Shown here: in pieces, positions 48,082-48,834 of the stretch
Position numbering within the stretch: position 1 is the stretch's first letter
How the letters are laid out: every line of letters starts with the position of its first letter
From: Octopus vulgaris
Lineage: Eukaryota
DNA: 64,000 bases
Assembly: GCA_951406725.2 (NCBI GenBank)
Contig: OX597817.1
Coordinates: 149,792,001 to 149,856,000, forward strand
Direction of reading: 5' to 3'
Program-made: the position numbers and the translations under genes
Notes under the pieces: model-generated
Database searches by the model: none
Told to the model about the DNA's origin: nothing
What the model saw: only the letters and a program-made list of their open reading frames with translations

Positions 48082-48834
48082 AGAGAATGGTCACTATGTG
48101 GCATAACCTTTTGGATTTTCTAGTGCTAGAATGAGCCACATAGTGACCATTCTCTTATATTTATTTTTGTATAAAATATTATAATATATTATAAAATATT
48201 ATAATAATCCTGGTTTCTCGAGGCACTGGGCCACTTGGTGTTGAATAGATATGCTATTAAATTAGTATCTAATTCTCTCACCCTTATTAATTAATTATAA
48301 TTATGCTACATTTATTTCTAAATGTAGTATTTGTTTCCGTGAAAGTTTGGCGCGCTGTTGGTAAGGGCATTTGAATTATAACGTCGGATGTAATCAATTG
48401 AACCACACGTGTATTTATCGTTATGGTAAAATCTGGCGTGTGATTGAGTGGATTTCATCCAGATAGTTTTGGCTGAGGAGCTACAAGTGGGTTTTTTGTA
48501 AGTAAAATTACATTTAATTCATTAATAGCGAAACAATTGTCCCAAAATAATCTGTATTTTTGTTATTTTTTATTTGCCCTGTTCGTGTGAGCTAACAATC
48601 GTACTGACTTTCATAGGAAACATGTATTTCTGTGGTTGAAACCTTTTGGATTTTCTAGTGCTAGAATGAGCCACATAGTGACCATTCTCTTATATTTATT
48701 TTTGTATAAAATATTATAATATATTATAAAATATTATAATAATCCTGGTTTCTCGAGGCACTGGGCCACTTGGTGTTGAATAGATATGCTATTAAATTAG
48801 TATCTAATTCTCTCACCCTTATTAATTAATTATA
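48082..48834 (+). mobile_element. Hammerhead-bearing non-autonomous retroelement (retrozyme or Penelope pseudo-LTR type) in (TA)n
   Basis: 195-bp direct repeats 48105-48299 and 48640-48834 (535-bp period), a 21-bp inverted piece at 48082-48102, (TA)n on both flanks, and a hammerhead inside. Confidence 0.7.
48462..48552 (+). ncRNA. Type I hammerhead ribozyme motif
   Basis: Stem I TTTTGG/CCAAAA; core CTGAGGA (48473-48479); stem II GCTA…TAGC; GAAA; palindromic stem III ACAATTGT; cleavage triplet GTC (48539-48541). Confidence 0.75.

What the first reader, a model, noticed from the sequence alone, without database searches (positions are those of the whole stretch)
48082..48834. Hammerhead-containing 535-bp unit present as ~1.36 tandem copies in (TA)n: candidate retrozyme or Penelope-dependent RNA element
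Seen: apparently identical 195-bp direct repeats (48105-48299, 48640-48834), a 21-bp inverted fragment at the left junction (48082-48102 vs 48135-48155), no ORF, (TA)n flanks, and a complete type I hammerhead core with GUC site and palindromic stem III (ACAATTGT). Established: Penelope-like elements carry minimal type I hammerheads in pseudo-LTRs and form partial tandems with inverted junctions; animal non-LTR retrozymes are non-coding hammerhead repeats processed into circular RNAs; palindromic stem III allows dimeric cleavage. Inference: a young non-autonomous self-cleaving RNA element, possibly copied from a ~535-nt circular or multimeric RNA by a PLE reverse transcriptase (a PLE RT relic lies at 28060-28570). 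I cannot tell whether this family is already described.
Basis: partly seen in the sequence, partly recalled or inferred. Interest (0 to 1): 0.8.

Follow-up and report, generated by a model that had tools for sequence, protein, structure and literature searches.

The report
Octopus hammerhead retrozyme in TA microsatellite
A 535-base non-coding repeat, found in many variant copies and likely from an octopus, carries a predicted self-cutting hammerhead RNA and sits here as 1.36 head-to-tail units inside a TA microsatellite, so it is likely a new member of the known 'retrozyme' jumping elements that are thought to borrow Penelope-type copying enzymes; cutting and RNA circles are untested.

Summary
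The motif arose in 1 of 20,000 shuffles, and two copies are predicted to fold best as a dimeric hammerhead. Public contigs show an abundant family: both unit junctions recur, the right end meets (TA)n at the same base in other copies, almost nothing runs on into other sequence, and two base pairs can be compensated. Both repeats share five minority letters, so one template was likely copied more than once round. Best reading: a non-autonomous element of the animal non-LTR retrozyme kind, likely moved by a (TA)n-targeting Penelope-like element. This copy has one hammerhead only. Cleavage, circles, copy number and the helper are not shown. One whole-genome run under a holder's species label had no family reads, which is unexplained. 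Verdict: new member of a known kind, not found in the papers searched. Interest 0.4.

The parts
48014..48075 (.). left (TA)31 run, target microsatellite; no target-site duplication can be read
48082..48102 (-). 21-bp inverted arm, exact reverse complement of 48135-48155; 5-6 further letters (48076-48081) match 48156-48160 with a 1-nt bulge; followed by 2 filler letters (48103-48104)
   Evidence: carries the minority letter of position 48150; depth 0 over 48082-48100 in all 4 laid runs
48105..48299 (+). 5'-truncated upstream copy: the last 195 bp of the unit (pseudo-LTR equivalent)
   Evidence: loose ends before 48105 in X2 and X13 continue with the unit's own 48625-48639 sequence
48300..48834 (+). 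one whole 535-bp non-coding unit, 31.6% G+C, strongly self-paired (z -6.7 for the permuted unit 48105-48639; z -6.4 for 48300-48639)
48304..48329 (+). 11-bp hairpin just past the fixed end site, in the place of the Penelope 'tail'; A-U pair 48308/48325 is G-C in most of the family
   Evidence: both letters at equal depth in X13 (19.7) and nearly equal in X18
48461..48553 (+). type I hammerhead: stem I 48461-48472/48542-48553, core 48473-48479, stem II arm 48480-48529 (4+8+5 bp), GAAA 48530-48533, palindromic stem III 48533-48540, predicted cut after 48541
48640..48834 (+). downstream copy of the 195-bp repeat; its end (equivalent to 48299) is a recurrent right end of the family against (TA)n
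   Evidence: loose ends behind 48299 are (TA)n in X2 (6 contigs) and X13 (1 contig, different flank)
48831..48876 (.). right (TA)23 run, overlapping the element's last four letters
28064..28594 (+). broken reverse-transcriptase relic of a Hydra-clade-like Penelope element (context only; no sequence link to the unit)

Best explanation
This is one insertion of an abundant, non-coding, 535-base hammerhead-bearing repeat family that is likely a non-autonomous retroelement of the animal non-LTR retrozyme kind, likely copied into a (TA)n tract by the reverse transcriptase and GIY-YIG endonuclease of a Penelope-like element (a Hydra-clade one is my best guess). Shown: the anatomy, the family, the two recurrent unit junctions and the recurrent right end on (TA)n. 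Inferred steps: (1) a source locus with two or more units is transcribed; (2) two hammerheads pair through the palindrome ACAAUUGU and cut after C48541, giving a 535-nt monomer that a host ligase would close into a circle (predicted only); (3) the helper protein nicks (TA)n and starts reverse transcription inside the RNA, at the base equivalent to 48834/48299, next to the hairpin 48304-48329 and 293 nt downstream of the cut site; (4) it copies across the intact cut site and on for 1.36 units, which needs a circle, an uncut multimer or an exact template jump; (5) the left end is closed by a 21-nt inverted piece, made by fold-back of the cDNA or by priming from the second target strand at the AU-rich patch 48156-48160. 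I put about 0.45 on a circular template and 0.55 on an uncut multimer or a jump.
For: Anatomy matches PLE insertions: 5'-truncated copy before a full copy, inverted piece at the 5' junction, (TA)n target (PMC8557442 sections 6, 11, 15; palindromes at inverted junctions, PMC3846280 passages). Internal start of reverse transcription in a stem-loop, AT-rich cleavage and extension of both target strands are shown in vitro for a PLE (PMC11167929). Family: 1022 contig pieces of X2, 115 of X18 and 14 of X13 lie on the unit; X2 summed depth is 1.8-7.2e5 in all 26 bins from 48139 to 48632 (not a copy number); the share that runs on into unlike sequence is 0, 0.04 and 0.12; pieces cross 48299/48300 and loose ends close 48639 to 48105. 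Loose ends behind 48299 are (TA)n in 6 X2 contigs and 1 X13 contig, and none of the 20 loose ends shown (of 74) puts (TA)n before 48105: fixed right end, free left end. The two repeats are identical yet share 5 letters that are the minority in X2; independent decay would give about 10 differences, P(0)=4.5e-5. The inverted arm has the same minority letter at 48150. Hammerhead: 1 of 20,000 shuffles; the two-copy MFE (-57.0 against -51.2 kcal/mol for two monomers) is the double hammerhead with both cores open and an 8-bp shared stem III. Of 24 variant sites none hits the 12 core letters (0.5 expected, so weak), one is the free N7 position, 5 break a predicted pair (9.4 expected, P 0.025) and two pairs can be compensated, 48308/48325 and 48468/48546 (P 0.0055). 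A Hydra-clade-like RT relic lies in the window, and Hydra-1_Obim of octopus targets (TA)n.
Against: Only one hammerhead is at this locus, so it cannot release a monomer by double cleavage and fails the 'active retrozyme' rule of the 2026 preprint; no piece with two hammerheads was seen, since contigs are short. In the monomer stem III has pairing probability 0.01 and the active fold costs 2.7 kcal/mol. Hammerhead cleavage was not needed for insertion by the anole PLE, and 8 of 9 Xenopus retrozyme dimers did not cleave in vitro. X21, raw whole-genome reads (1,934 million letters) under the same species label as X1 and X18, gave 12 partial AT-rich matches and no family read. The left arm has no support in any of the 4 laid runs. 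The two variants of stem I pair 48468/48546 are not shown to be linked, 48546G is absent from X2, and the tests are post hoc and treat related copies as independent. The minority-letter argument fails if the window's own species has those letters as its majority. No helper element sharing the unit's ends was found; by eye the 3' ends of Hydra-1_Obim, Naiad_Obim and Naiad_Ovul do not resemble it, and none of six 12-mers is in that supplement.
Confidence: 0.75

Rival explanations
1. Same family and same helper, but the hammerhead is idle in mobilisation: the template is an uncut multimeric read-through transcript (or the RT jumps templates), and no circle is involved. This differs from the best explanation only in steps 2 and 4, so the two confidences overlap.
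For: Hammerhead mutants did not change insertion by the anole PLE (PMC11167929); 8 of 9 Xenopus dimers did not cleave; monomer stem III is unstable; hammerhead-free Naiads make the same partial tandems.
Against: The core shows no variant among 24 sites and the stems tolerate mostly pair-keeping changes; the part around the hammerhead is folded like a rod (z -6.4), as in circle-forming retrozymes (PMC7229834 section 14).
Confidence: 0.4
2. The unit is the non-coding end (pseudo-LTR region) of an autonomous Penelope-like element, and this locus is two 5'-truncated ends in partial tandem, not a self-contained small element.
For: PLEs carry type I hammerheads with palindromic stem III in their pLTRs (PMC4209133 passages); a few pieces run on into other sequence: X18 record 12 (87% over 48259-48343, then 444 nt unlike), X13 behind 48606, X2 behind 48449.
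Against: The 48299/48300 junction is shared by the family, depth does not fall away from the 3' end as truncation of a long element would give, the run-on share in X2 is 0, and the sequence closes on itself in 535 bp without an ORF.
Confidence: 0.12
3. The family is a hammerhead-bearing satellite or old repeat, and the 195-bp duplication here arose by DNA-level duplication, gene conversion or an assembly error and not during reverse transcription.
For: Perfect identity of the repeats also fits a recent duplication or a polishing artefact; the left junction has no support in the 4 laid runs; no host genome or long read was available.
Against: Both junctions exist in independent runs, the right end is the same base on different (TA)n flanks, and an inverted arm with microhomology to (TA)n is a PLE-type junction.
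Confidence: 0.1

Closest known systems
Animal non-LTR retrozymes (Cervera & de la Pena 2020, PMC7229834; Li, Clavereau & Pollet 2026 preprint 10.64898/2026.07.22.740005)
   Same: Non-coding, low G+C, self-paired unit with a type I hammerhead and short palindromic stem III; head-to-tail continuity; co-occurs with PLEs; the mussel family is a mollusc precedent.
   Different: 535 nt against about 170-400 nt for invertebrate circles (within the 51-972 bp of the preprint); 50-nt stem II arm; only one hammerhead here; fixed end on (TA)n and inverted arm; no cephalopod in the texts I searched.
Hydra-clade Penelope-like elements, e.g. Hydra-1_Obim (Craig et al. 2021, PMC8557442)
   Same: (TA)n target, type I hammerhead on the sense strand, partial tandems and inverted 5' pieces; some cores read CTGAGGAG...CGAAACA like this one.
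   Different: No ORF; cut site 293 nt from the right end, whereas the listed Hydra hammerheads mostly lie within about 200 nt of the end; their stem II loops are 3-10 nt; no shared sequence seen.
Poseidon element PAc of the green anole (Frangieh et al. 2024, PMC11167929)
   Same: Fixed internal start of reverse transcription beside a stem-loop downstream of the hammerhead cut; AT-rich targets; 30-40-nt tail position.
   Different: Autonomous, hammerhead overlaps the ORF start, stem-loop is AC-rich; here the hairpin is AU-rich and no tailed copy was seen.
Non-autonomous Chlamys elements such as MRC1 (PMC8557442, passage)
   Same: Non-coding PLE passengers with pLTR-like partial tandems and head-to-tail insertions.
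   Different: Green algae; the Chlamys clade mostly lacks canonical hammerheads; helper known by shared 3' ends.

Membership tests
Type I hammerhead ribozyme | CUGANGA / GAAA / NUH core closed by stems I-III in type I order | tested here: met
   stem III only 2-3 bp in the monomer
Type I hammerhead ribozyme | Rfam RF00163 gathering score (34 bits) | tested here: not met
   28.6 bits, E 1.8e-5 in a 171-base scan; 36-nt insertion in stem II; not listed in a 3-kb scan
Type I hammerhead ribozyme | self-cleavage at the NUH site | not testable with these tools
   dimer fold predicted only
Animal non-LTR retrozyme | non-coding unit, G+C below 45%, highly self-paired | tested here: met
   (31.6% G+C; z -6.7)
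Animal non-LTR retrozyme | repeat family with head-to-tail continuity of the unit | tested here: met
   both junctions recur in X2, X13, X18
Animal non-LTR retrozyme | family has tandem copies with two or more hammerheads (source loci) | tested here: inconclusive
   this locus has one; contigs too short to show two; no genome held
'Active' retrozyme locus as defined in the 2026 preprint | two consecutive units each with a full hammerhead at this locus | tested here: not met
   1.36 units, one hammerhead; it would count as a monomer-type offspring copy
Animal non-LTR retrozyme | monomeric linear and circular RNA in cells | not testable with these tools
   contigs cannot show RNA ends, strand or level
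Penelope-like element insertion (mode of integration) | partial tandem, 5' truncation, inverted 5' piece, fixed 3' end in AT-rich or (TA)n target | tested here: met
   features as
Penelope-like element insertion (mode of integration) | optional 30-40-bp tail in some copies | tested here: inconclusive
   hairpin 48304-48329 sits in that place; no tailed end among 20 loose ends shown of 74
Autonomous Penelope-like element | RT + GIY-YIG ORF between the repeats | tested here: not met
   tblastn of four RT relatives hits only 28067-28594 in the window
Non-autonomous partner of a Hydra-clade element | ends shared with an autonomous family | tested here: inconclusive
   no exact 12-mer in the Craig supplement; diverged relatives share 48230-48343 but their identity is unknown

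The most novel reading that the evidence does not exclude
A very abundant octopus retrozyme family whose dispersed 1.x-unit insertions are direct records of more-than-unit reverse transcription round a self-cleaved, ligated 535-nt circle by a (TA)n-targeting Penelope enzyme. It would use a dimer-only hammerhead with a 50-nt stem II arm that standard models under-score, and the A-to-G changes fixed in this copy (5 A>G, 0 T>C, all at predicted A-U pairs) would be ADAR edits of the RNA template written back into DNA. The family may also be patchy among lineages filed under one species name.
Probability: 0.15. Interest if true: 0.7.

Novelty: new member of a known kind. Interest (0 to 1): 0.4.

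Why it matters
Non-LTR retrozymes and their link to Penelope-like elements are published, so the kind is not new. This family adds a likely cephalopod case and joins in one locus the features that the model predicts but that are seldom shown together: a hammerhead unit, a fixed internal start on (TA)n, more than one unit copied across an intact cut site, and an inverted left arm. With many copies in a sequenced genome it would allow a direct test of whether the template is a circle or an uncut multimer, of what the hammerhead does in Penelope-type mobilisation, and of whether RNA editing feeds back into the genome. It also shows that hammerheads with long stem II arms fall under Rfam's cut-off.

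Tried and rejected
No host genome is held, so no copy count, array search or helper search could be run. Expression: no RNA holder listed; X13 and X18 are only guessed to be RNA, and I use them as sequence, not as expression evidence. Of 24 listed runs I laid 4; the unlaid rows with small shares (labels A-F, 11 studies among the 20 holders) are not used as evidence. An exact 20-mer of the hammerhead is absent from metagenome contigs. A loosened core pattern gave 9 matches, 9 of 9 with stem I of 0-1 bp and no similarity to the rest of the unit: chance. No other copy of the unit in the window. No tRNA gene in 46000-51000. The bacterial promoter scan is irrelevant and gave no more than shuffles. 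Pfam found nothing in three open stretches of the RT relic; the word-indexed protein search found nothing, the full HMMER search did. The Naiad 'half-core' idea (core halves 35-50 nt apart in Naiad_Ovul) was followed: by eye the printed Naiad_Obim and Naiad_Ovul 3' ends do not match the unit; supplement sequences could not be aligned with tools, so weak similarity is not excluded. No look-alike among earlier findings by sequence or place. Literature: 'hammerhead ribozyme' + 'octopus' (5 papers, 4 listed), 'retrozyme' + 'cephalopod' (one work), 'circular RNA, ribozyme, octopus, transcriptome' (one review) showed no description of this family by title or abstract. The O. vulgaris repeat annotation (PMC13282606) has no mention of hammerhead, ribozyme or retrozyme in its text or supplement; its library of 190 Penelope-like families was not visible and may hold this family, as may Repbase or Dfam. 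The preprint's supplements were not seen.

Full report
Observation. 48105-48299 and 48640-48834 are identical over 195 letters and cannot be extended; 48082-48102 is the exact reverse complement of 48135-48155. The element lies between (TA)31 and (TA)23. Frames inside it reach at most 66 aa from stop to stop. There is no second copy in the window. The layout is: (TA)n, inverted 21-bp arm, two filler letters, the last 195 bp of the unit, one whole 535-bp unit (48300-48834), (TA)n.

The hammerhead. Core CTGAGGA (48473-48479), GAAA (48530-48533) and a GUC site (cut predicted after 48541) are closed by stem I (7 bp, A/A mismatch, 4-5 bp) and by a stem II arm of 50 nt (4+8+5 bp). In the circular fold of the unit 11 stem I pairs and all 17 stem II pairs have pairing probabilities of 0.89-1.0, stem III only 0.01. 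A descriptor set with the motif in view was met by 1 of 20,000 shuffles of the unit and once in 100 shuffled windows. Rfam missed it in a 3-kb scan and scored it 28.6 bits, under the 34-bit cut-off, in a 171-base scan; the alignment treats 36 nt of stem II as an insertion. The monomer's active fold lies 2.7 kcal/mol above its best fold. For two copies the best fold is the double hammerhead, with both cores open and an 8-bp shared stem III, at -57.0 against -51.2 kcal/mol. That is the dimer mechanism described for short palindromic stems III (PMC4209133, passages; PMC6155905, passages). As a control, 9 of 9 metagenome matches to the same core pattern lack stem I. The unit is 31.6% G+C and folds far better than shuffles (z -6.7); the signal lies in 48300-48639 (z -6.4), while the left flank gives z 0.15.

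The family. No host genome is held. Twenty of 24 listed runs hold the stretch or part of it; I laid 4 on 48082-48639 at 85% likeness. X2 gave 1022 contig pieces (336 at 99% or more, 381 at 95-99, 241 at 90-95, 64 below 90), X18 115 and X13 14. Summed depth in X2 is 1.8-7.2e5 in all 26 bins from 48139 to 48632. The tool warns that this is no copy number and I had no single-copy baseline, but so many variant pieces mean many copies. Pieces cross 48299/48300 (X13 records 3 and 4, X18 records 13 and 14). Loose ends before 48105 continue with the unit's own far end (X2, X13), and a diverged X2 contig goes back from 48629 to 48117, so the family's sequence closes on itself at about 535 bp. Behind 48299 the loose ends are (TA)n in 6 X2 contigs and in 1 X13 contig with a different flank. 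None of the 20 loose ends shown (54 not shown) puts (TA)n before 48105. The share running on into unlike sequence is 0 in X2, 0.04 in X18 and 0.12 in X13. This fits a self-contained small element with a fixed right end and a free left end better than the end of a long element. Against this picture: X21, raw whole-genome reads under the same label as X1 and X18, had 12 partial AT-rich matches and no family read in 1,934 million letters, and no run covers 48082-48100.

Variation. Table 3 has 27 rows; I dropped the 3 that come from X21's partial matches and used 24. Six are unpaired (one is the free N7 core position), 9 keep the pair, 4 form two compensable pairs and 5 break a pair. Placing the same changes at random gives 9.4 breaks (P 0.025) and 0.12 compensated pairs (P 0.0055). 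The pair 48308/48325 (A-U here, G-C in most of the family) occurs at equal depth in X13; linkage of the stem I pair 48468/48546 is not shown. Three of the five breaks appear to come from one diverged X18 contig that ends before stem I's other side. These tests are post hoc and related copies are not independent, so they are support, not proof. The window copy differs from the X2 majority at 13 of 535 places, 5 of them inside the repeat, and both repeats share all 5; independent decay would give about 10 differences, P(0)=4.5e-5. The inverted arm has the same minority letter at 48150. So the differences were likely in the template, and one template unit was read more than once, unless a later duplication, conversion or assembly step made the copies alike, or the window's species has those letters as its norm.

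Mechanism. PLE insertions are 5'-truncated partial tandems, often with an inverted piece at the 5' side and an optional 30-40-bp tail; Naiad and Hydra clades prefer (TA)n, and Hydra elements carry canonical hammerheads (PMC8557442, sections 3, 6, 9, 11, 15 and supplement parts 1, 2, 52, 53). Palindromes at inverted junctions were read as self-priming (PMC3846280, passages). The anole PLE cuts AT-rich DNA, extends both strands and starts inside its RNA at a stem-loop, and did not need its hammerhead (PMC11167929, parts 1-2 of 4). Here the fixed end lies 293 nt downstream of the cut and next to an 11-bp hairpin. A cut linear monomer would let the enzyme copy only 293 nt, yet the insert runs on across an intact cut site for 730 nt in all. 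The template was therefore a circle, an uncut multimer or an exact jump (inference). Circles as templates for more-than-unit copying were proposed in PMC4209133 and PMC7229834 (sections 14 and 17). The left arm fits fold-back or second-strand priming equally, with 5-6 letters of microhomology to (TA)n.

Helper and host. The relic at 28064-28594 is in three broken pieces. Its longest open stretch finds 249 proteins at E up to 0.001. Of the 9 relatives of 600 aa or more among the 150 listed, 5 have RW[KR], 7 DK[TS] and 6 CxCx5C, the motifs given for the Hydra clade. Four of 8 relatives looked up carry names, all Octopus, so the host is likely an octopus. The relic shares no sequence with the unit. 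The published octopus Hydra and Naiad ends do not resemble the unit by eye, and none of six 12-mers is in that supplement (line breaks could hide some). The helper's clade is therefore a guess from target choice and hammerhead presence.

Comparison and novelty. It works like an animal non-LTR retrozyme and meets the testable family features, except that source loci with two hammerheads were not seen. This locus itself is a one-hammerhead offspring, not an 'active' copy in the sense of the 2026 preprint (parts 1-3 of 5 read; supplements not seen), which also argues that such elements derive from PLE ends. I found no description of an octopus family (PMC13282606 passages and supplement search), but repeat libraries were not visible. 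Earlier unchecked notes of this scan describe the same architecture in other genomes, which argues that it is a common kind.

Verdict. Real, well formed, new member of a known kind. Interest 0.4; confidence 0.75 in the PLE-dependent retrozyme reading; about 0.45 that the template was a circle.

Noticed in passing
window 49094-49159 (within 48965-49195, between two TA runs): A second, unrelated minimal type I hammerhead-like motif with a C3-to-U core (TTGAAGA), 4-bp stem II and palindromic ACCGGT; Rfam Hammerhead_HH9 23.8 bits, E 0.008, below the 52-bit cut-off. Likely the truncated 3' end of another Penelope-like family; its fold is no better than shuffles.
   Followed up: partly
window 48222, 48228, 48253, 48360, 48491: Five of 13 differences from the X2 majority are A>G on the sense strand, all at predicted A-U pairs, none T>C (one-sided P 0.013, post hoc); three have a 5' U. 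Could be ADAR editing of the RNA template or tolerated G.U drift.
   Followed up: partly
run X21 laid on window 48082-48639: A whole-genome run under the same species label as the best holder has no read of the family: label mismatch or patchy distribution.
   Followed up: no
X18 record 12, X13 behind 48606, X13 record 2, X2 behind 48449, X2 joint 48476-48542: Diverged relatives that share the unit's end and hairpin or its stem I flanks and then go on differently; the X13 loose end behind 48606 holds another CTGATGA core. Candidates for the helper element or sister families.
   Followed up: no
X13 loose end behind 48167: Another copy meets (TA)n at the AT-rich patch where this locus's inverted arm begins, hinting at a recurrent secondary priming site.
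   Followed up: no
window 47180-47570, and similar text near 25900-26700 and 35050-35650: Copies of what looks like an abundant SINE interrupted by microsatellites (recalled as an octopus-type SINE, not tested).
   Followed up: no
PMC8557442 supplement, 3' ends of Naiad_Obim and Naiad_Ovul: Both end with GAAA upstream of CTGATGA within short pairable stretches, which might be a permuted hammerhead missed by type I descriptors; seen by eye only.
   Followed up: no
(XP_029653623.1, XP_029651259.1, XP_052826861.1): Octopus proteins annotated as GATA zinc-finger-like or uncharacterised are pieces of Hydra-clade-like reverse transcriptases.
   Followed up: partly
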